A stretch of 64,000 bases of DNA from an uncultured Neomegalonema sp. (GTDB lineage Bacteria; Pseudomonadota; Alphaproteobacteria; Rhodobacterales; Rhodobacteraceae), in assembly GCA_937911325.1 (NCBI GenBank), contig CALDSD010000093.1, positions 1 through 64,000 on the forward strand. The letters are read 5' to 3'. Positions 3,902-12,192 of the stretch are shown here, piece after piece (within the stretch, counting starts at the first letter, position 1; each line of letters opens with the position of its first letter). Below the pieces are notes generated by a model that worked only from the letters and a program-made list of their open reading frames with translations, ran no database searches and was not told where the DNA came from. Position numbers and translations under genes: made by a program.

Positions 3902-4873
3902 CTAGCGCGCCGCATCCACCTCGAGTTGCAGCAACACGGTGGACTGGAAGCTATTGAAGTTGTCGTCCGACAAAACCGTCACAATGACGGCTCCGTCCGC
4001 GCCGCGTTCGACGACAACGCCTTCCATGTTGTCAATTCCACTGTCGGGCCCAAGGATCGCCAGCGTCTCACCGGCGCCAAGGTCGTCCATGTCGAACGAG
4101 GGCTCCGCAAAGCGACGGAGCCGCATCCAGACGCCGCCCAACAACGTAAAGCGGCGCTCGAGCAGATAGAGGGCGCCGTCAGGACCAAAATCCAACCCGG
4201 TCGGGGAGAACCCCTCTGAGCGCTCGAACGTAAACTTCGACCAGCGCCCACGAGCCAGACGGTACCCCAGATTGCGCCGACCGAGCATCGCACGCGGGCC
4301 TGTCGCACGTTCAGCAACCACGACAAGCGCGCCATCCGGAGCTCTCGCCAGACCTTCAAAGCTCCGATTGCCGCTGACAAGCCGATTTGGCGGTTGAGGG
4401 GTAAAACGGCGTTCTGCGGACTGGAGCGTTTTGAACAAACCCAGACGATGTGTCTGTTCAAACGAGACCAAGACGCCATCGGGCGTCGCCTGCACCCCCT
4501 CGGCGTCGCCGCCGTCTTTGTCGAGAGCAAGACCATCCGGCCCAAGCATCGGCCGGATCTCGCCACCCTTCACGTCGATCAACCGCCCTTCGCTGTCTCG
4601 CACCAGCTGCATCGAGACGAAGCGACCTTGATCGACGACGGCGGTCAGGCGGTCGTCTTCGATCATCATGCCGGAAAGTCCGCCAAAGCCATGATGGGGC
4701 GAGGACAAACGCAACGCTGACACAAAACGCGCGCGGCTTCCCGCGAGGGCGTCGTCAGGCATCTCGAACTGTTCGGCTTCGATCTCGATCGGCGCCGCTG
4801 CTGCCCAGAGCGCATGCCCGAGAAGCGCCGCGACAACCAAACTCCGCGCCAGAACGCGTTTATGATGCGTCAC
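3902..4873 (-). CDS. secreted esterase-like/phytase-like family protein
   Basis: N-terminal signal peptide and a repeat-rich beta-propeller-like sequence typical of the 'esterase-like activity of phytase' family. It is convergent with the LOG gene. Confidence 0.55.
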   Translation of the reverse strand: MTHHKRVLARSLVVAALLGHALWAAAAPIEIEAEQFEMPDDALAGSRARFVSALRLSSPHHGFGGLSGMMIEDDRLTAVVDQGRFVSMQLVRDSEGRLIDVKGGEIRPMLGPDGLALDKDGGDAEGVQATPDGVLVSFEQTHRLGLFKTLQSAERRFTPQPPNRLVSGNRSFEGLARAPDGALVVVAERATGPRAMLGRRNLGYRLARGRWSKFTFERSEGFSPTGLDFGPDGALYLLERRFTLLGGVWMRLRRFAEPSFDMDDLGAGETLAILGPDSGIDNMEGVVVERGADGAVIVTVLSDDNFNSFQSTVLLQLEVDAAR

Positions 4874-5739
4874 CGCGTCACCAAGCTCCGGCAGGCTTCC
4901 GGGAGATCCGCAAGCGTGACCGCCTTCCGGACCTTCTTGGGCCCAGGCTTAGGCTTGGGATTGAGCGCTTCATCGGAGAACCACCACGCCAACGTCGCAT
5001 CGCACCCATCCCCGGGCGGCGGCGGATCCTGCGCCTGACAGCCCGGCGATCCCGGCGGGCAATGAAGCCGGACATGAAAGTGATGGTCGTGCCCCCACCA
5101 CGGCCGCACCTTCCGCAGCCAGCCGCGATCATCGCCGCGGTCGCGCGCCTGTTCGCACAATCCCTGCTTGATCGCGGCGTTCACAAAAATCCGGGCGACG
5201 CCCAGATCCTCGGCGGCGGCGCGGATCACGTCGTAATGTTCGGGCGTCCACGCCTGGCTGAGCGACTTGCGGTCTGGCGCGACGACGTTGAACGAGGAGA
5301 GTTTCTCGCGCTCCTGCCGTGTGAGTTCGCGGTCGGGCGCCGGACGCATCCAAAAGTCCGCGTCGATGCCCGTTTGATGGGATCGATGACCCGTCAGCAT
5401 CGGCCCGCCGCGCGGCTGTGCGATGTCGCCGACCAGAACGCCGGGCCACCCAATCGCTTGCGCGGCGGTGGAGAGCCGCTCGATGAACGCGATCATGCTC
5501 GGATGGCCGAAGTTGCGGTTCCTGGAGAGCCGCATCGCCTGCCACCCCTCGCCGGTCGGCGCCAGACGCATCGCGCCCGCCAGACACCCCTTAGAGTATC
5601 CGCCGAAGACCTCCGGTGCCTGCGGGCTCGGATCAGCGACGGCGCCAAAGAGCCGCTTCGCCGGCTCTGTCTCGGCGCTCGCAACCGGAGCAGCCAAGGG
5701 GAGCGTTAGAACAATCAGCAGCAGCCAGCTTCGCGCCAT
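4870..5739 (-). CDS. mepA: penicillin-insensitive murein endopeptidase MepA (peptidase M74)
   Basis: Signal peptide and the HDHHFHVRL metal-binding motif characteristic of MepA. Confidence 0.8.
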   Translation of the reverse strand: MARSWLLLIVLTLPLAAPVASAETEPAKRLFGAVADPSPQAPEVFGGYSKGCLAGAMRLAPTGEGWQAMRLSRNRNFGHPSMIAFIERLSTAAQAIGWPGVLVGDIAQPRGGPMLTGHRSHQTGIDADFWMRPAPDRELTRQEREKLSSFNVVAPDRKSLSQAWTPEHYDVIRAAAEDLGVARIFVNAAIKQGLCEQARDRGDDRGWLRKVRPWWGHDHHFHVRLHCPPGSPGCQAQDPPPPGDGCDATLAWWFSDEALNPKPKPGPKKVRKAVTLADLPEACRSLVTR

Positions 5740-5795
5740 AGCAAGTCATCTCAACGTCGATGGACTTTCCTGGCGCAAGACTGAAGCGATCGCGC

Positions 5796-7595
5796 CTAGT
5801 TGTCCATCTTCAGCGCGTTGATGAAGGCCTCCTGCGGGATCTCGACCTTGCCGAACTGCCGCATCTTCTTTTTACCGGCCTGCTGTTTCTCCAGCAGTTT
5901 GCGCTTGCGCGTCACGTCGCCGCCATAACACTTCGCAGTGACGTCCTTACGCAGCGCGCGGACGGTTTCGCGCGCAATGATGCGACCACCGATCGCCGCC
6001 TGGATCGGCACTTTGAACATGTGCATCGGGATCAGTTCTTTGAGCTTTTCGCACATGGCGCGGCCACGGCGTTCCGCCTGGCTGCGGTGGACGATCGTGG
6101 ACAACGCGTCGACCGGCTCGTCGTTCACGAGGATCGACATCCGCACCAGGTCGCCCATCTCGTAACCGTCGATCTGGTAGTCGAAGCTCGCATAGCCCTT
6201 GGTGATCGACTTCAGGCGATCGTAGAAGTCGAACACCACTTCGTTCAGCGGAAGCTTATAATTCGCCATCGCACGCGAGCCCGCGTAGGTGAGATCCTGT
6301 TGCACCCCGCGCCGCTCCTGACAGAGCTTCAGGACGTCCCCCAAGTAGTCGTCGGGAACGAGGATGTTCGCCTGGATCCAGGGCTCCTCGATATGGTCGA
6401 TCTTTACTGGGTCGGGCATGTCGGCCGGATTGTGCATCTCGATCATCCCGCCATCCGTCGTGTAGACGTGATAAACCACCGACGGCGCTGTCGTGATCAA
6501 ATCGATGTTGTATTCGCGCTCAAGCCGCTCGCGGATGATCTCAAGGTGCAACAGACCCAGGAAACCACAACGGAAGCCAAACCCGAGCGCCGCAGAAGTC
6601 TCCATCTCGTGGCTGAAGGACGCGTCATTGAGGGCAAGCTTCTCCATCGCGTCGCGCAAGTTCTCGAATTCGGCGCTATCGACTGGGAAGATCCCACAGA
6701 ACACCACCGGCTGCGCCGGCTTGAAGCCCGGCAGCGGCTCCTCGGTTTGGCGGCGCTCTTCGGTGATCGTGTCGCCAACCCGTGTATCCGAAACCTGTTT
6801 GATCGAGGCGGTGATGAACCCGAGTTCACCTGGTCCCAACTCGTCGATGGTCATCATTTTCGGGATGCAGACGCCGACGCGGTCGATAGGATAGTAATCG
6901 TTCTTCGACATCATCCGGTTCTTCTGGCCCTGTTTCAGAACACCGTCGACGACGCGGACAAGAACGACCACTCCGAGATACGCGTCGTACCAGCTATCCA
7001 CCAGCAACGCTTTCAGAGGCGCATCGCGATCGCCGCTGGGCGCTGGTAGACGCTCGACGATCGCTTCGAGCACATCTTCGATACCAAGACCCGTCTTCGC
7101 AGAAATATGCACAGCGTCGCTGGCGTCGATCCCGATCACGTCTTCGATCTGCTCAGACACCCTCTCCGGCTCCGCCGCGGGGAGATCGATTTTATTAAGG
7201 ACCGACACAATCTCGTGGTCCGCGTCAATCGCCTGGTAGACATTTGCAAGCGTCTGCGCCTCGACGCCTTGGCTGGCGTCCACGACCAACAGCGATCCTT
7301 CGACCGCCAACATCGATCGGGAAACCTCGTAGGCGAAGTCCACATGCCCTGGGGTGTCGATCAGGTTGAGAATGTAATCTTCGCCGTTCTTGGCTTTGTA
7401 GCGCAGACGAACCGTCTGCGCCTTGATCGTGATGCCACGCTCTCTCTCGAGATCCATCGAGTCGAGCACCTGCGCTTTCATCTCGCGGTCTGAGAGCGCG
7501 CCGGTCGTCTGGATCAGCCGGTCGGCCAGCGTCGACTTTCCGTGGTCGATATGCGCGACGATCGAGAAGTTTCGAATGTGAGAGAGATCTGTCAT
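5796..7595 (-). CDS. lepA: translation elongation factor 4
   Basis: Full-length match to LepA, including [21 protein letters not shown]. Start set at the ATG at 7595 ([10 protein letters not shown]). Confidence 0.95.
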
Positions 7596-7660
7596 GTTCG
7601 GGTTATGGGTGCGCTTCCGGACACCGTCAACGTCAGATCGCCGCACCTATCGCCGCGCCC

Positions 7661-7692
7661 CAAAAGTTAAAGAGGCCGCTCAACCGAGCGGC
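7661..7692 (-). terminator. putative rho-independent terminator downstream of the hypothetical gene 7747..8118
   Basis: 7-bp GC-rich stem (GCCGCTC/GAGCGGC, loop AACC) followed on the minus strand by TCTTTAACTTTT. Confidence 0.45.
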
Positions 7693-7746
7693 TTCCTCCC
7701 CCCTTCATCCTGAACTCGCATGTTGCAGAGCGTAGAGGCGGCTTGT

Positions 7747-8118
7747 TCAAGCTGCGAGGGGCATCTCCACAACGTTGCGCGCCGGGGCCGACAGAGGCGC
7801 GGCAGCGGCGTCGCCCGTTAGGAAAACAAGAGCGCCGGAGACCAAACCCGCGACCGCCGAGCGCCCAAAGAGACGCCCTTCAGCCAACTCCGTGAACCCT
7901 TCGGCGTCCGAAGGCGCTTCGGCGATCAGAGCACCCGACGTACGAGCGCGAGCGACCACGTAATCCGGCCAGTCCGCCGACAGATCTTCCTGGGTCGTCA
8001 GGGCCACGCCGCCATCGTCGCCAAACAGGGCGCGAAAGCCCTTTTCAGCCACGGTCGCATCTTCGACGACAACGAGGGAACGGACAGCTGGGGCGGTGGT
8101 CGGCATGCTCACATACAT
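7747..8118 (-). CDS. hypothetical protein
   Basis: 123-aa ORF with a GGAGAA RBS 7-12 nt upstream of the ATG at 8118. No confident family assignment. Confidence 0.5.
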   Translation of the reverse strand: MYVSMPTTAPAVRSLVVVEDATVAEKGFRALFGDDGGVALTTQEDLSADWPDYVVARARTSGALIAEAPSDAEGFTELAEGRLFGRSAVAGLVSGALVFLTGDAAAAPLSAPARNVVEMPLAA

Positions 8119-8219
8119 TGGCTTTCTCCTGCCTCGGCGGGGACTGTCGCCCGCGTTGTTGATGTTTTGTTCCTACATTAACGATGAGAACAAAACAAGA
8201 TGTTTTCTTAATGTTCTCT

Positions 8220-8227
8220 CACTTTTT
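8220..8227. repeat. target-site duplication (left copy)
   Basis: CACTTTTT directly abutting the left IR; identical to 11113..11120. Confidence 0.8.
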
Positions 8228-8250
8228 GGCGATTATATACCTTGCAAACC
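8228..8250. repeat. IS left terminal inverted repeat
   Basis: GGCGATTATATACCTTGCAAACC; its exact reverse complement is at 11090..11112. Confidence 0.85.
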
Positions 8251-8301
8251 CGCTAATGTGATGCCATATCTAGCTTACTGAGAGCACTGGGGTTTTCTGA
8301 A

Positions 8302-9225
8302 ATGTCCATTCTTTCAAAAGCTTACTTCCACGACGAGGCTGCGGCCTTCGAGTACCTGGAGAACATCCTATGGCCGGACGGCCCGGTTTGCCCCCATTGC
8401 GGCGGGTACGAGCGCATTTCCAAGATCAAGGCGAACCCGGAGAAGCGGGTCCGTCAGGGCCTGCACAAGTGCGGTCAGTGCAAAAAGCAGTTCACGGTGC
8501 GTGTCGGCACTGTCTTTGAGGCGTCCAAGGTCGAGCTGCACAAGTGGCTGCAGGCGGTGTACCTGATGTGCGCCAGCAAGAAGGGCATCAGCGCGCACCA
8601 GCTTCACCGCGTTCTGGAGGTCACCTACAAGACCGCATGGTTCATGGCACACCGTATCCGGGAGGCGATGCGTTCGGGAGACCTTGGCCCTTTCGGCCCG
8701 ATGGGCGGTCAGGTCGAGGTGGATGAAACGTTCATCGGCCACGACAAGACCCGCCCGGTTGAGCGCGGCTACCAGCATAAGCACAAGGTTCTAGCGCTTG
8801 TGGACCGCCGCACGGGCAAAGCGAAAACGATGGTCGTTGATCGCCTCGCTAGCCGTGAGTTACTGCCGATCTTGAAAGAGAACATCTCTGAGGAAGCACG
8901 CGTCTACACCGATGAGGCTGGCTGTTACCGCCGCTTGCGCGACCACTTCCTGCAGCTCCAGTCGGTGAAGCATAATGATGGCGAGTACGGTCGTGGCGAG
9001 GTCCACACAATCACCGTCGAGGGCTACTTCTCGATCTTCAAGCGCGGCATGAAGGGTGTCTATCAGCACTGCGCCAAGAAGCACCTGCATCGGTACGTCG
9101 CTGAGTTTGAGTTTCGCTACAATAATCGGGTGGCCAACGGTGTAGGCGACGCCACAAGAACACGAGTTGCATTGGCGGCCGCAGTTGGGAAGCGACTGAC
9201 CTATCGGCGGGCTAACGTCGAATAG
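8302..9225 (+). CDS. IS1595 family transposase (N-terminal zinc ribbon + DDE_Tnp_IS1595/ISXO2-like domain)
   Basis: CPHCG...CGQC zinc ribbon, then VYTDEAGCYRRL...KHLHRYVAEFEFRYNNR, which is typical of IS1595/ISXO2-like transposases. Confidence 0.9.
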   Translation: MSILSKAYFHDEAAAFEYLENILWPDGPVCPHCGGYERISKIKANPEKRVRQGLHKCGQCKKQFTVRVGTVFEASKVELHKWLQAVYLMCASKKGISAHQLHRVLEVTYKTAWFMAHRIREAMRSGDLGPFGPMGGQVEVDETFIGHDKTRPVERGYQHKHKVLALVDRRTGKAKTMVVDRLASRELLPILKENISEEARVYTDEAGCYRRLRDHFLQLQSVKHNDGEYGRGEVHTITVEGYFSIFKRGMKGVYQHCAKKHLHRYVAEFEFRYNNRVANGVGDATRTRVALAAAVGKRLTYRRANVE

Positions 9226-9427
9226 TTGAGTCGGATCAAAGGGATAGCAAAAATATCCACATCTTGTTGGAATCGTTGAACGATTTACCCACATGTAGTA
9301 TGTTCCAATTGGTGGGCCGCCGGGTCGCTCGGGTCGGCAGCGAAAGTGACTGAGGGCGTCCATAGGGACGGTTGGCGCTCTAGGAAGCTGGCCTAGAAGC
9401 CCTTGGATTAGACGAGTCCGGGGCCCA

Positions 9428-10282
9428 CTATTGCCTGGGGTATCCGTAGTATCGGAAGACCTCGGATTGCTCGGGCAGTAGCTTGGCCCCTTTCAGCGAG
9501 GGTAGCAGCTTCACACCGTAGCCGGCAGCGGTGTTTGCAGGGTCGTCTCGATACTTTGCCATTCGTGGGCGCAAGAGCTTCGCGAAGCGCGGATCACAAG
9601 CGCCGGTGTTGTGCACGTCGGATCCTTTAAAAAACGAACTTGCAACGACATCCGCGAGTTGCAGACCAGCGCGTTCGTAATGTGGAAAAACCTTAAGTAG
9701 ATCGTAGTCAATGACCTCCCAGTGTATTTTGCCAAACTTCAGAAAGGTATTTTCGCCCTGATAGCTGATCCAGCGATAGTATGCATTCATCTGTGGGTAA
9801 GAAAGTCCGCCGCGGTTACTGTACTCAATGCGAACCTTTTTCGGCGTTCCGAACTCTTTTTTCGAATGCCAATAGACAAAGTCCGTGACCCGTTCCAAAA
9901 GTACCCTTGTCATCCAGCAATAAAACCAATTTCGAGATGGGATATTTTCGGCGAGAGGATTTCGGTAGCCGCGCATATTCTTCTTATTCGAGCAGACTAC
10001 AAAATATCTTGCGCTAAGCTCTGCTAGGCGCTCACATACAAATACTTTCTTGTTTTCCGAGAGGTTTGAAAAATGCAGGGTGCGTGCTTGGTGTCGCCAA
10101 AGCCCGTCTTTAATGCTTTGAACCCAGTGCTTGACCTCGTCTTCGCGCGAAGCCTTCACGACTACGCCTGAGATCATGAGCCACTCGCTCGAACCATTCT
10201 CGTCGATCGGCCGAATGCGCTTAAGGCCGTCGTCGCCAGCCTCATCGATGTACGCTATATAGTGATAGGGCTTTCCATTCAT
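9428..10282 (-). CDS. DUF3800-like protein (IS passenger)
   Basis: 284 aa. The N-terminal YIAYIDEAGDDG resembles the conserved YIDESG motif of DUF3800. GC content is visibly lower than the surrounding genome. Confidence 0.55.
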   Translation of the reverse strand: MNGKPYHYIAYIDEAGDDGLKRIRPIDENGSSEWLMISGVVVKASREDEVKHWVQSIKDGLWRHQARTLHFSNLSENKKVFVCERLAELSARYFVVCSNKKNMRGYRNPLAENIPSRNWFYCWMTRVLLERVTDFVYWHSKKEFGTPKKVRIEYSNRGGLSYPQMNAYYRWISYQGENTFLKFGKIHWEVIDYDLLKVFPHYERAGLQLADVVASSFFKGSDVHNTGACDPRFAKLLRPRMAKYRDDPANTAAGYGVKLLPSLKGAKLLPEQSEVFRYYGYPRQ

Positions 10283-10293
10283 GGCAGGATTTG

Positions 10294-10467
10294 ATGTCTG
10301 CGGATAAATTGAAAAAGAGTCAACGGGATCGCTTCAAAGAAGCCGCCCACGAGCTGGAGGCCAGTCAAGACGAGGAGCGTTTTAAGGACGCGCTGAGGCA
10401 GATCGGCCAAGCCAAACCACCCGACAAGGACAAAACCAAGGACGACGACCAGAAGCCCGGCCAATGA
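10294..10467 (+). CDS. small highly charged hypothetical protein (57 aa, IS passenger)
   Basis: ATG at 10294 with AGGA 5 nt upstream. Translates MSADKLKKSQRDRFKEAAHELEASQDEERFKDALRQIGQAKPPDKDKTKDDDQKPGQ. It is below the 60-aa cutoff of the ORF track and is preferred over the hydrophobic antisense ORF 10279..10464. Confidence 0.35.
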   Translation: MSADKLKKSQRDRFKEAAHELEASQDEERFKDALRQIGQAKPPDKDKTKDDDQKPGQ

Positions 10468-10495
10468 GCCGGGCTTCGCATTTATGGAGGACCGA

Positions 10496-10681
10496 ATGAC
10501 GGAATGGACCTACCGCGCGCAGGCATGGGTCTGGCGCGCCGTCGCGCAACTAGTGCCGACGTGTTTTTTGCAGTGGGAGCTTCAGCGACGCCCTGGTGTT
10601 GAGGCGATCCGGCGCGGGATCGGCGAGAGAGCCGAGGTCGCGGCAGACGGCCCCTGCACCGTGACGATCAACCGAGACTAG
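10496..10681 (+). CDS. hypothetical protein (61 aa, IS passenger)
   Basis: ATG preceded by GGAGGA (4-nt spacer); Trp-rich. Its stop overlaps the convergent KTSC gene. Confidence 0.3.
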   Translation: MTEWTYRAQAWVWRAVAQLVPTCFLQWELQRRPGVEAIRRGIGERAEVAADGPCTVTINRD

Positions 10682-10860
10682 TAGCGGTCTCGGATATGGT
10701 CGCTGAAGAACGTTCCCTTTGAGGGCGCCCGCAAGAACGCGAGGTAAACGTGCTCCGGCACTCCGTGATAGTCGTACCGTCCGCTCTCATGGAACCAGAT
10801 GGACAGCGTTCCCGCGTCCCATTCGATCCGTCCGATTGCGGAGGAGTTTACAAATGGCAT
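10678..10860 (-). CDS. KTSC domain-containing protein (IS passenger)
   Basis: 60 aa from the ATG at 10860 with an AAGGAGG RBS. IEWDAGTLSIWFHESGRYDYHGVPEHVYLAFLRAPSKGTFFSDHIRDRY matches the KTSC domain. Confidence 0.7.
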   Translation of the reverse strand: MPFVNSSAIGRIEWDAGTLSIWFHESGRYDYHGVPEHVYLAFLRAPSKGTFFSDHIRDRY

Positions 10861-10969
10861 GCTCAAGCCTCCTTTTCCAACATGTTGTGGTTGGGGCTTG
10901 ACGTGAATCGCGCTTTGAATCAGTGTCGTGACGCGGTTCCGCTCCAGCCCCAACCGGCTGGTTCATCTA

Positions 10970-10999
10970 GGTGCTGAGGTGGTTGCACACCTCAGCACC
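10970..10999. other. perfect 12-bp-stem hairpin in subterminal IS region
   Basis: GGTGCTGAGGTG-gttgca-CACCTCAGCACC. No flanking U-tract on either strand. Confidence 0.4.
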
Positions 11000-11089
11000 G
11001 ACATCTTGATAGCACAGAAGAAGAACACGCGGGAGTCCTAGATTCCCGTGTCCACCAGCCTGCAGACTAGATCTGGTACCTCAGGTCTA

Positions 11090-11112
11090 GGTTTGCAAGG
11101 TATATAATCGCC
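11090..11112. repeat. IS right terminal inverted repeat
   Basis: GGTTTGCAAGGTATATAATCGCC, the exact reverse complement of 8228..8250. Confidence 0.85.
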
Positions 11113-11120
11113 CACTTTTT
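11113..11120. repeat. target-site duplication (right copy)
   Basis: CACTTTTT directly abutting the right IR. Confidence 0.8.
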
Positions 11121-11197
11121 TCACCTTGGGGCGAAGCCGACCGATCGTTACGGTCGACACGACACAGCTGACTGACTTTGAGCGACAGGGGGTCTCA

Positions 11198-11905
11198 TTG
11201 GCGCGGATCGTCATATTAACGGGCGCCGGGATTTCGGCGGAGTCGGGACTTGGAACCTTCCGGGATGAAGACGGACTCTGGACCCAATACGACCTTGAAG
11301 ACGTCGCAACGCCCGAGGGGTTCGCCCGCAATCCCGAGCTCGTGCACGACTTCTACAACGCGCGCCGGCGTGGATTGTTGGAGGCACGGCCAAACGCCGC
11401 GCATCACGCGCTGGCGCGTCTTGAGACGGCGCTGCCTGCGCAGGTTCTGATCGTCACTCAGAACATCGACGATCTGCACGAGCAGGCGGGATCAGAAAAC
11501 CTCATCCATATGCATGGCGAGTTGCTGAGAGCCCATTGCACCGAATGCGGGGGCAGCTTTGAGATGCGCGAAGACCTGTCGCCCGAACGCCCATGCCTGC
11601 AATGCCGCGAGATCGGCGGGATGCGGCCATCGGTGGTGTGGTTCGGGGAAATGCCGCTTGAGATGCCGCGGATCTGGAACGAGATCCGAGACGCCGACCT
11701 GTTTGTGTCAATCGGCACCAGCGGAAACGTCTACCCAGCCGCAGCGTTTGTGCAGGACGCCGGTCGCGCAGGAGTAGCGACGCTCGAGCTGAACCTTGAA
11801 AAAACGTCGAACGACTTCGACGAGTCGCGCCAAGGCCAGGCGAGTGTGATCGTCCCGGCCTGGGTCGATGAGGTGTTAAGAGACCTAGAAGGATCCGAGA
11901 TCTAG
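11198..11905 (+). CDS. cobB: NAD-dependent protein deacylase (Sir2 family)
   Basis: [17 protein letters not shown] and a Cys-rich zinc site. Start proposed at the TTG at 11198 ([11 protein letters not shown]), preceded by AGGGGG with a 6-nt spacer. The annotated upstream TTG at 11126 lies only 6 bp from the IS target duplication. Confidence 0.85.
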
Positions 11906-12192
11906 CTCGCTGGCGCGGCCGCTTTCTCGAGATCGCGCTTCACCTTCAGCGCCCGAGGCGACAGTTCTTCGTCGCGAGCCTTCTTCAGGAAAGCGTCAAG
12001 ACCGCCCCGGTGATCGACGGAGCGCAGGGCGTGCGAGGAGATCCGGAACCGGAAGCTACGGCCTAGCGCGTCGCTGTGAAGCGTCACCTGATTGAGATTG
12101 GGCAACCAGCGCCGACGCGTTCTGTTGTTCGCGTGGCTCACATTGTTGCCGGTTTGAACGCCTTTACCAGTCAGCTCGCAGCGACGGGACAT
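11902..12192 (-). CDS. rpmB: 50S ribosomal protein L28
   Basis: [34 protein letters not shown]... Start at the ATG at 12192 with a GAGGGAAAG RBS. It overlaps the cobB stop by 4 bp (convergent). Confidence 0.9.

What the first reader, a model, noticed from the sequence alone, without database searches (positions are those of the whole stretch)
8220..11120. Intact IS1595-family element with perfect 23-bp TIRs, 8-bp target duplication and a cargo of non-transposition genes
The sequence GGCGATTATATACCTTGCAAACC at 8228..8250 recurs as its exact reverse complement at 11090..11112. The 8-mer CACTTTTT lies immediately outside both copies (8220..8227 and 11113..11120), which fits the 8-bp target-site duplication reported for the IS1595 family. 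The element is 2885 bp, roughly three times a minimal IS1595 member, because it carries at least four passenger ORFs besides the transposase. The unbroken TIRs and TSD argue for a recent, possibly still active insertion.
Basis: partly seen in the sequence, partly recalled or inferred. Interest (0 to 1): 0.7.

Follow-up and report, generated by a model that had tools for sequence, protein, structure and literature searches.

The report
Cargo-carrying IS1595-family insertion sequence
This is a real, intact 2.9-kb jumping gene of the IS1595 family that carries extra genes, a kind of element already known, and a close relative's genome still shows the empty site it jumped into.

Summary
Perfect 23-bp inverted repeats lie at 8228-8250 and 11090-11112, flanked by the 8-bp direct repeat CACTTTTT. 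They bound a 2885-bp element. Its 307-aa transposase carries the IS1595 zinc ribbon and DDE domain, with all conserved residues in place.

A related MAG (flanks about 96.6% identical) has the precise empty site, with CACTTTTT once. Three near-identical assemblies carry the element at the same site. No second insertion site was found in any collection, so transposition is shown once and current activity is not shown.

The element is a transporter IS (tIS), a category defined on this family, so I rate it a new member of a known kind.

Comparison with 53 complete relatives (1.85-4.0 kb) adds two points:
- All of them carry extra genes.
- 49 of 53 share a fixed layout: transposase, variable slot, a conserved unannotated 45-60-aa gene (here 10294-10467), an optional second slot, right end.

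That small gene is therefore probably a core part of the element, not cargo. The slots hold DUF3800 (as here), PIN and Panacea modules, Fic, KilA-N and other conflict-type genes. Their function is inferred only.

Interest is modest.

The parts
8220..8227 (.). Left copy of the 8-bp target-site duplication, CACTTTTT
   Evidence: Read directly. It is present once at the empty site in L083.
8228..8250 (+). Left terminal inverted repeat (IRL), GGCGATTATATACCTTGCAAACC
   Evidence: It fits the clade consensus GGCGATTATATACTTTACAAACCCA, whose terminal GG is invariant in 47 elements.
8302..9225 (+). Transposase, 307 aa: N-terminal zinc ribbon plus DDE domain
   Evidence: Pfam PF12760 (E 3.9e-13) and PF12762 (E 4.6e-33); NCBIfam NF033547 at 204 bits. 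It is full length against homologues of 304-319 aa. D141, D204, E240, K247 and C30/C33/C57/C60 fall in columns at least 98% invariant across 121 sequences.
9226..9427 (.). Non-coding spacer between the convergent transposase and DUF3800 genes
   Evidence: No ORF support. Folding is unremarkable (z -1.05). No Rfam match. No similarity in other elements.
9428..10282 (-). Passenger gene in slot 1: DUF3800 protein, 284 aa
   Evidence: Pfam PF12686, E 2.3e-9, 38.5 bits against a cutoff of 21. Homologues occupy the same position and strand in 13 of 53 related elements. A TAG/TGG polymorphism at 9429 gives 300 aa in L081 and L082.
10294..10467 (+). Clade-conserved small gene (sORF), 57 aa; the core reads QRDRFKEAAHELEASQDEERFKDALRQIGQAK
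   Evidence: Present in 45 of 53 relatives, plus 4 with a divergent form, always on the transposase strand. Third codon positions vary most: entropy 0.89, 0.78 and 1.42 for positions 1, 2 and 3. At least 1121 homologues exist, none annotated. It was called as a gene in L081, L082 and L147.
10496..10681 (+). Passenger gene in slot 2: 61-aa protein of unknown function, paired with KTSC
   Evidence: Called in L081, L082 and L147. Homologues lie next to KTSC in L013, L017 and L026. No Pfam match. The only NCBIfam match, BC1881, is below cutoff at 20.3 against 27 bits.
10678..10860 (-). Passenger gene in slot 2: KTSC-domain protein, 60 aa
   Evidence: Pfam PF13619, E 1.1e-18. 78% identical copies lie in L013 and L017 and a 53% copy in L026, at the same position. 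PDB relatives are 4rgi and 7x8c.
10862..11089 (.). Hairpin-rich non-coding region between the KTSC start and the right repeat
   Evidence: Minimum free energy -101.3 kcal/mol, z -6.1, 0 of 200 shuffles fold as well. No Rfam match. It is not repeated elsewhere in the window, and KTSC-bearing relatives lack it; their KTSC start lies about 70 nt from the end.
11090..11112 (-). Right terminal inverted repeat (IRR)
   Evidence: Exact reverse complement of IRL.
11113..11120 (.). Right copy of the target-site duplication, CACTTTTT

Best explanation
Positions 8228-11112 are an intact transporter insertion sequence (tIS) of the IS1595 family.

Shown: the whole 2885-bp unit was inserted as one piece, with an 8-bp duplication of CACTTTTT. 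It landed in the 186-bp divergent intergenic region between a 123-aa hypothetical gene (next to lepA) and the Sir2/cobB deacylase gene of an alphaproteobacterial MAG, probably Neomegalonema. It now lies 109 nt from the start of the first gene and 85 nt from the start of the second.

Inferred from the family: the zinc-ribbon plus DDE transposase binds the GG-terminated 23-25-bp terminal repeats. It joins the ends by staggered cuts 8 bp apart at an A/T-rich target.

Shown by comparison: the element belongs to a large alphaproteobacterial clade with a fixed scaffold. The order is IRL, transposase, variable slot 1, a conserved 45-60-aa gene, optional slot 2, IRR. Here slot 1 holds a DUF3800 gene and slot 2 holds a 61-aa ORF plus a KTSC gene.

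Inferred only: the slot genes are conflict-type genes (defence, addiction or toxin-antitoxin-like) that favour retention of a single-copy element. The small conserved gene is an accessory or regulatory factor of the element, not cargo.
For: - Ends and duplication.
- Family domains above the curated cutoffs.
- Transposase full length, with D141/D204/E240/K247 and the CxxC...CxxC pairs in invariant columns.
- Exact empty site in L083, whose flanks are 96.1-96.6% identical, with an 8-bp alignment overlap; a second relative at about 80% identity (L084) also lacks the element.
- Same element, same site and identical ends in L081, L082 and L147. Divergence inside the element (0.21-0.28%) is similar to that of the flanks (0.14-0.16%).
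- 47 relatives from different species have matching GGCGATTATATAC-type repeats and perfect 8-bp duplications. Their lengths are 1851-4033 bp (median 2710). Their duplications are 81% A/T against 40% in the flanks.
- Modular layout and cargo content.
- The small gene is conserved, coding, unannotated, and sits in an IS1595 context in 6 of 6 homologues picked independently of the transposase.
- A plasmid relative, L149, has only the transposase and the small gene.
- The tIS concept was defined on the IS1595 family: PMC3129680; bioRxiv 10.1101/2021.05.26.445724.
- DUF3800 is described as an RNase H-like fold linked to mobile elements, defence systems and non-coding RNAs: PMC10910872, PMC13594972, PMC5737381.
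Against: - No second copy or second insertion site of this element (transposase above 90% identity) was found in the window, in genome or metagenome collections, or in the exact-protein index. Present-day activity is therefore not shown.
- No cargo protein matches a PADLOC defence model. No DUF3800-associated RNA motif is present. The conflict-gene role is therefore only an inference from domain names and the literature.
- The small gene has no detectable homologue of known function. Its model is two short helices at a mean pLDDT of 67, which is uninformative.
- The chemistry of IS1595 transposition (cut-and-paste or copy-and-paste) was not tested here. No solved structure of a relative was found by sequence.
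Confidence: 0.9

Rival explanations
1. The element is a one-off insertion that is now immobile. It is structurally intact but fixed in this lineage, behaves as an ordinary chromosomal gene cluster, and is maintained for its cargo rather than as an active transposon.
For: It sits in one copy at one site in four assemblies. The exact 31-nt left end is absent from JGI metagenomes. The 90% transposase cluster has only 3 members, all at this locus. Divergence inside the element matches that of the flanks, so it has been inherited vertically since insertion.
Against: The repeats are perfect, the duplication is intact, the transposase is full length with every conserved residue, and no frameshift or stop is present. 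The insertion is younger than a split at about 3.4% divergence. Short-read MAG assemblies would under-report extra copies.
Confidence: 0.35
2. The unit is not one IS. It is a minimal IS of about 1 kb plus neighbouring host genes, mobilised once because the transposase used a distant solo right repeat. On this reading the cargo is an accident of this locus.
For: Minimal IS1595 members are about 1 kb. G+C content dips to 45-46% across the DUF3800 gene against about 60% in the transposase and the flanks, which suggests a different origin for that gene.
Against: No internal repeat-like sequence follows the transposase; allowing 3 mismatches, the window holds only the two terminal matches. 47 relatives in different species have the same layout, with duplications flanking the whole 1.85-4.0-kb unit. 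The small gene and the KTSC pair recur at the same relative positions. The empty site lacks everything between the repeats.
Confidence: 0.03
3. The repeats and the duplicated 8-mer are a chance or native repeat structure, or the island was integrated by some other recombinase.
For: None beyond the prior possibility. The A/T-rich 8-mer is of low complexity.
Against: A 23-nt perfect inverted repeat has 0 expected matches in shuffles. The same repeat sequence bounds homologous elements in dozens of species. The exact 23-mer occurs in 49 metagenome contigs, and a homologous transposase (55-68% identical where a substantial length aligns) was detected in 27 of them. The empty site shows exact excision-level boundaries. 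No integrase or other recombinase gene lies inside.
Confidence: 0.01

Closest known systems
Transporter IS (tIS) of the IS1595 family, most likely the ISNwi1 / 'ISNwi1+' subgroup of ISfinder (Siguier, Gagnevin and Chandler 2009)
   Same: - A single zinc-ribbon plus DDE transposase, GG-terminated repeats and an 8-bp duplication.
- Extra genes carried inside the repeats.
- The left end GGCGATTAT fits my recollection of the ISNwi1 end consensus (ggnnatTAT) and of the 'plus' size range of about 1.75-4.75 kb.
- A homologue 66% identical is named 'ISSpo8, transposase' by its source.
   Different: - The nearest transposase found outside this lineage is only 74% identical (L001), so by ISfinder's usual thresholds this would get a new name.
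- Subgroup assignment could not be tested because no ISfinder copy was available.
- I found no description in the held literature of the conserved small gene, the two-slot layout, or the conflict-type cargo. The key 2009 and 2014 papers are not held.
Related elements found here, such as L017 (Roseovarius MAG), L013 (Roseobacter sp.) and L148 (Roseomonas marmotae plasmid p1318-1)
   Same: The repeat type, the 8-bp A/T-rich duplication and the small gene are shared. L013, L017 and L026 also share the 61-aa ORF plus KTSC pair at the right end (KTSC 78%, 78% and 53% identical).
   Different: - Their slot 1 holds an unknown 250-aa gene plus a PIN gene on the plus strand, or Panacea plus a partner gene. 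The window element has a minus-strand DUF3800 gene there.
- Their transposases are only 59-64% identical.
- They lack the 160-nt hairpin-rich stretch before the right repeat.
IS1 family
   Same: Distantly related DDE transposase with a zinc-finger N-terminus. There is a weak NCBIfam transpos_IS1 match (E 1.4e-4, 21.9 bits).
   Different: The match is far below the cutoff of 100 bits. IS1 makes its transposase by frameshifting between two ORFs and gives 8-9-bp duplications with different ends. Here there is a single uninterrupted ORF.
DUF3800 genes with associated structured RNAs (DUF3800-I to XI, drum, skipping-rope; Weinberg et al. 2017, PMC5737381) and CRISPR-linked TPR-DUF3800 proteins (PMC10910872, PMC13594972)
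   Same: The main passenger has the DUF3800 domain. The literature describes that domain as an RNase H-like fold often found on mobile elements and in defence loci.
   Different: No TPR domain is present. No Rfam DUF3800 RNA motif occurs in this element or in 11 DUF3800-bearing relatives. There is no CRISPR or retron context.

Membership tests
IS1595 family | Transposase with the DDE_Tnp_IS1595 catalytic domain | tested here: met
   PF12762, E 4.6e-33, 114.8 bits (cutoff 27). NF033547, 204 bits (cutoff 75)..
IS1595 family | N-terminal Zn_ribbon_IS1595 domain (present in all groups except IS1016) | tested here: met
   PF12760, E 3.9e-13. C30, C33, C57 and C60 are invariant.
IS1595 family | Conserved acidic triad with a downstream K/R | tested here: met
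   D141, D204, E240 and K247 fall in columns at least 98% invariant across 121 aligned sequences. Calling these the catalytic residues is an inference from their position in the Pfam domain; they were not mapped on a structure.
IS1595 family | 8-bp target-site duplication | tested here: met
   CACTTTTT occurs on both sides and once at the empty site. 47 relatives have perfect 8-bp duplications.
IS1595 family | Terminal inverted repeats starting with GG | tested here: met
   23 of 23 bases match perfectly. The terminal GG is invariant in 94 ends.
ISNwi1 subgroup (ISfinder) | End consensus ggnnatTAT and placement with ISNwi1-group transposases | not testable with these tools
   The end GGCGATTAT fits the consensus as I recall it. 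No ISfinder sequences were available. The only link is a 66%-identical homologue that its source names ISSpo8.
Transporter IS (tIS) | Genes unrelated to transposition lie inside the repeats of an otherwise IS-like element | tested here: met
   DUF3800 and KTSC have Pfam matches above cutoff. The 61-aa ORF is conserved together with KTSC.
Transporter IS (tIS) | The whole unit moves as one, with the duplication flanking transposase plus cargo | tested here: met
   The empty site in L083 lacks all 2885 bp plus one copy of the 8-mer.
Composite (compound) transposon | Two IS copies flanking the cargo | tested here: not met
   There is one transposase gene and only two repeat matches in 64 kb.
Active (currently transposing) IS | Several copies at different sites, or observed movement | tested here: not met
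   A single site was found in 4 assemblies and no other site in any collection. MAG assemblies may hide further copies.
DUF3800-associated RNA systems (Rfam DUF3800-I to XI, drum, skipping-rope) | A matching structured RNA next to the DUF3800 gene | tested here: not met
   There is no Rfam match at E up to 1 in 7500-12000. None reached gathering score in 11 DUF3800-bearing relatives.
Known anti-phage defence systems (PADLOC-DB v2) | A cargo protein matches a defence-system model | tested here: not met
   There are no matches at E up to 0.01 for any of the five proteins.

The most novel reading that the evidence does not exclude
This element represents a large alphaproteobacterial clade of IS1595 elements that is a dedicated shuttle for conflict-system genes. 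On this reading the unannotated 45-60-aa gene (at least 1121 homologues, found so far only inside these elements) is an essential accessory factor: a transposition regulator, or a factor that marks the boundary where cargo modules are exchanged. The slot genes (DUF3800, PIN pairs, Panacea pairs, Fic, Schlafen/AlbA_2 ATPase, KilA-N, a D12 methyltransferase cluster) would give defence or addiction functions that explain why single-copy elements are kept.
Probability: 0.3. Interest if true: 0.55.

Novelty: new member of a known kind. Interest (0 to 1): 0.3.

Why it matters
As an annotation matter, public records label only the transposase. The cargo genes and the boundaries are not marked as mobile. 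As a result a DUF3800 gene, a KTSC gene and two small genes look like chromosomal genes.

The insertion also splits the divergent promoter region of cobB and its neighbour, which may change their expression.

More broadly, the clade comparison gives a clean natural data set. It holds 47 elements with exact boundaries and a fixed scaffold with exchangeable slots. It could be used to ask how IS elements acquire and swap cargo, and what DUF3800 proteins and the conserved small protein do. None of this changes the category: cargo-carrying IS1595 elements have been recognised since 2009.

Tried and rejected
- Exact-protein look-up of the window transposase returned nothing, although the cluster look-up later showed the sequence is in the collection.
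- Megablast of the element against plasmids gave one short 76% hit.
- The 31-nt left end has no match in JGI metagenomes. The 22-nt repeat has no match in viral contigs.
- Rfam, including the DUF3800 motifs, gave nothing inside the element or in 11 DUF3800-bearing relatives.
- PADLOC gave no hits.
- The 202-nt spacer beside the DUF3800 gene was tested as a candidate partner RNA. Its folding is ordinary (z -1.05) and it is not conserved in other elements, so I rejected that idea.
- The small gene has no Pfam family above noise and no PDB match. Its AlphaFold model (pLDDT 67) was too weak to justify a fold search.
- The sigma-70 and terminator scan gave no more than chance.
- The 2014 ISfinder review (PMC7190074) is not held. 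'ISNwi1' occurs in only two unrelated papers.
- The compound-transposon and chance-repeat readings were considered and rejected; see the rival explanations.
Full report
**Observation**

The sequence GGCGATTATATACCTTGCAAACC lies at 8228-8250 and its exact reverse complement at 11090-11112. With up to three mismatches allowed these are the only two matches in the 64-kb window, and none is expected in shuffles. CACTTTTT lies directly outside both copies, at 8220-8227 and 11113-11120. The element is 2885 bp.

**What is inside**

- ORF 8302-9225 (+) encodes a 307-aa protein. It matches Pfam Zn_ribbon_IS1595 (E 3.9e-13) and DDE_Tnp_IS1595 (E 4.6e-33), and NCBIfam transpos_IS1595 at 204 bits against a cutoff of 75.
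- Aligned with 120 homologues of 304-319 aa, the protein is full length. D141, D204, E240, K247 and the two CxxC pairs (C30/C33, C57/C60) fall in columns that are at least 98% invariant.
- Downstream lie four further genes:
  - a DUF3800 gene on the minus strand (9428-10282; Pfam 38.5 bits against a cutoff of 21);
  - a 57-aa ORF (10294-10467, +);
  - a 61-aa ORF (10496-10681, +);
  - a 60-aa KTSC-domain gene (10678-10860, -; E 1.1e-18).
- The same five genes were called independently in three public assemblies of the same locus.

**Proof of insertion**

- The Sir2/cobB protein next to the element has a 96%-identical orthologue on a 4.5-kb contig of another MAG (L083, GCA_039818685.1).
- In that contig the 123-aa gene and the Sir2 gene are 186 bp apart and CACTTTTT occurs once.
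- Window 4516-8227 aligns to L083 1-3715 (96.6% identity). Window 11113-11906 aligns to L083 3708-4501 (96.1%). The two alignments overlap by exactly the 8-bp duplication.
A more distant relative (L084, about 80% identity) also lacks the element.
- Three assemblies (L081, L082, L147) carry the element at the same site with identical repeats and duplication. They are 99.7-99.8% identical to the window over 11-17 kb without gaps.
- In the two 16.9-kb loci compared (L081, L082), divergence inside the element is 0.21-0.28% and in the flanks 0.14-0.16%.
- So there was one insertion event. It came after the split from the L083 lineage and before the four carriers diverged, and it has been inherited since.
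- A source name for the KTSC protein suggests that the host is a Neomegalonema MAG.

**Is it active?**

I found no second site. The window has one copy. The 90% transposase cluster has three members, all at this locus. The 31-nt left end is absent from JGI metagenomes. The next nearest transposase in 185,579 species genomes is 74% identical. The element is structurally competent, but activity today is not shown.

**The family around it**

- A scan of one genome per species returned 80 loci with transposases 56-74% identical, nearly all from Alphaproteobacteria.
- A script looked for GG...CC ends with matching 25-mers and flanking 8-mers. It found 47 elements from different species with GGCGATTATATAC-type repeats and perfect 8-bp duplications.
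- Their lengths run from 1851 to 4033 bp, with a median of 2710. None is a minimal 1-kb IS.
- Their duplications are 81% A/T in flanks that are 40% A/T, so the clade targets short A/T-rich tracts.
- The exact 23-mer repeat of the window element also occurs in 49 metagenome contigs. A homologous transposase was detected in 27 of them, mostly 55-68% identical where a substantial length aligns. The ends therefore appear to be conserved more strongly than the protein.

**A fixed scaffold with exchangeable slots**

- I clustered all ORFs downstream of the transposase in 53 complete elements. This showed that the 57-aa ORF of the window is not private cargo.
- Homologues of it are present in 45 of 53 elements, and 4 more have a divergent form. 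They always lie on the transposase strand.
- The shared core is Q-x-D-K-F-K-E-A-A-R-E-L-E-C-D-E-D-E-A-R-F-x-x-x-L-K-K-x-A-K-x-K-P.
- Third codon positions vary much more than first and second positions (entropy 1.42 against 0.89 and 0.78). The conservation is therefore at the protein level.
- The family has no Pfam or PDB match. It has at least 1121 members, all labelled hypothetical.
- I picked six homologues by the small protein alone. Five lie 1.4-2.4 kb downstream of an IS1595 transposase on the same strand. The sixth (L150) sits in a decayed copy that keeps the cargo, the small gene and a right repeat but has lost the transposase.
- A Pseudosulfitobacter plasmid carries a 1869-bp member with only the transposase and the small gene annotated.
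- I conclude that the small gene is a core part of the clade.
- Its function is unknown. The AlphaFold model shows two short helices with an acidic loop and a Lys/Pro-rich tail, at a mean pLDDT of 67.

**What fills the slots**

- Between the transposase and the small gene (slot 1) the elements carry one of several alternative modules:
  - a DUF3800 gene on the minus strand, back to back with the small gene (13 of 53, including the window);
  - an unknown gene of about 250 aa plus a PIN gene (11);
  - a SocA/Panacea gene plus a partner (6);
  - an HTH gene plus a PIN_10 gene (in L018; related HTH genes in 3 elements).
- Other cargo includes Fic, KilA-N, a D12 DNA methyltransferase cluster, the T4-type 'Beta protein', and a Schlafen/AlbA_2 ATPase.
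- Between the small gene and the right repeat (slot 2), the window shares the 61-aa ORF plus KTSC pair with L013, L017 and L026.
- The literature describes DUF3800 as an RNase H-like fold. It is linked to mobile elements, CRISPR and retron loci, and at least 11 structured RNA motifs (PMC5737381, PMC10910872, PMC13594972).
- No such RNA motif was found here and no PADLOC model matches.
- Reading the cargo as conflict or addiction genes is therefore an inference from domain content, not a result.

**Comparison with what is known**

- IS elements with passenger genes were first defined on the IS1595 family and named transporter IS (Siguier et al. 2009, as cited in PMC3129680).
- From memory, the end GGCGATTAT and the size fit ISfinder's ISNwi1 'plus' subgroup. 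I could not test this.
- The element meets every family feature I could test.
- It is a new member of a known kind.
- I found no description of the conserved small gene or the two-slot layout in the held literature. The key papers are not held, so I do not claim those as new categories.

**Verdict**

The interest is modest, at 0.3. This is a textbook-quality example of a known element type. Its side value is a well-bounded comparative set for studying cargo exchange, DUF3800 and an unannotated small protein.

Noticed in passing
window 10862-11089: The 228-nt non-coding stretch between the KTSC start and the right repeat folds into four strong hairpins, one with a perfect 12-bp stem at 10970-10999. 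The minimum free energy is -101.3 kcal/mol (z -6.1; 0 of 200 shuffles fold as well). It has no Rfam match and is not repeated elsewhere in the window. KTSC-bearing relatives lack it; their KTSC start is about 70 nt from the end.
   Followed up: partly
window 9429: A single-base polymorphism changes the DUF3800 stop. TAG in the window and L147 gives 284 aa; TGG in L081 and L082 gives 300 aa. Homologues align only to about residue 281, so the shorter form is probably complete.
   Followed up: partly
window 6865-6932 (inside lepA): A cluster of 10 differences, nearly all A/C or T/G transversions within 68 nt, separates the window from all three sister assemblies. A similar cluster in L147 lies at window 8954-8997, inside the transposase. 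This looks like an assembly or consensus artefact, or a recombined patch, rather than ordinary divergence.
   Followed up: no
window 8119-8227 and 11113-11197: The element splits a 186-bp divergent intergenic region. It leaves 109 nt upstream of the 123-aa gene and 85 nt upstream of the probable TTG start of cobB/Sir2 at 11198. Promoters of one or both genes may be displaced. The consensus promoter scan found nothing.
   Followed up: partly
L150 4001-4363 (Erythrobacter ani, JAGSPB010000002.1): A decayed relative keeps the unknown-gene plus PIN module, the small gene and a right repeat (GGTGATTATATCGTTTGCAAACACG). It has no detectable transposase or left repeat.
   Followed up: partly
L149 3432-5300 (Pseudosulfitobacter pseudonitzschiae plasmid NZ_CP087043.1): This is a short 1869-bp member of the clade. 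Only the transposase and the small gene are annotated in it, and its flanking 8-mers match at 7 of 8 positions. Most of the 36 plasmid hits (30 records) come from this species.
   Followed up: partly
window 10678-10860: The KTSC protein weakly resembles the C-terminal 50 residues of a HerA-type helicase with a solved structure (8wiv, E 8.6e-4). It matches two stand-alone KTSC structures better (4rgi, 7x8c).
   Followed up: no
L098-L146 (metagenome contigs): The exact 23-mer repeat of this element occurs in 49 metagenome contigs. A homologous transposase was detected in 27 of them, mostly only 55-68% identical, so the ends appear to evolve more slowly than the protein.
   Followed up: partly
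window 7516-7579: There is a sub-threshold Rfam match to AsrC (25.9 bits against a gathering score of 111) inside the 5' part of lepA. It is most likely similarity of conserved coding sequence, not an RNA gene.
   Followed up: no
window 9650-10100: G+C content falls to 45-46% across the DUF3800 gene, against about 60% in the transposase and the flanks. This fits a foreign origin for this cargo gene.
   Followed up: no
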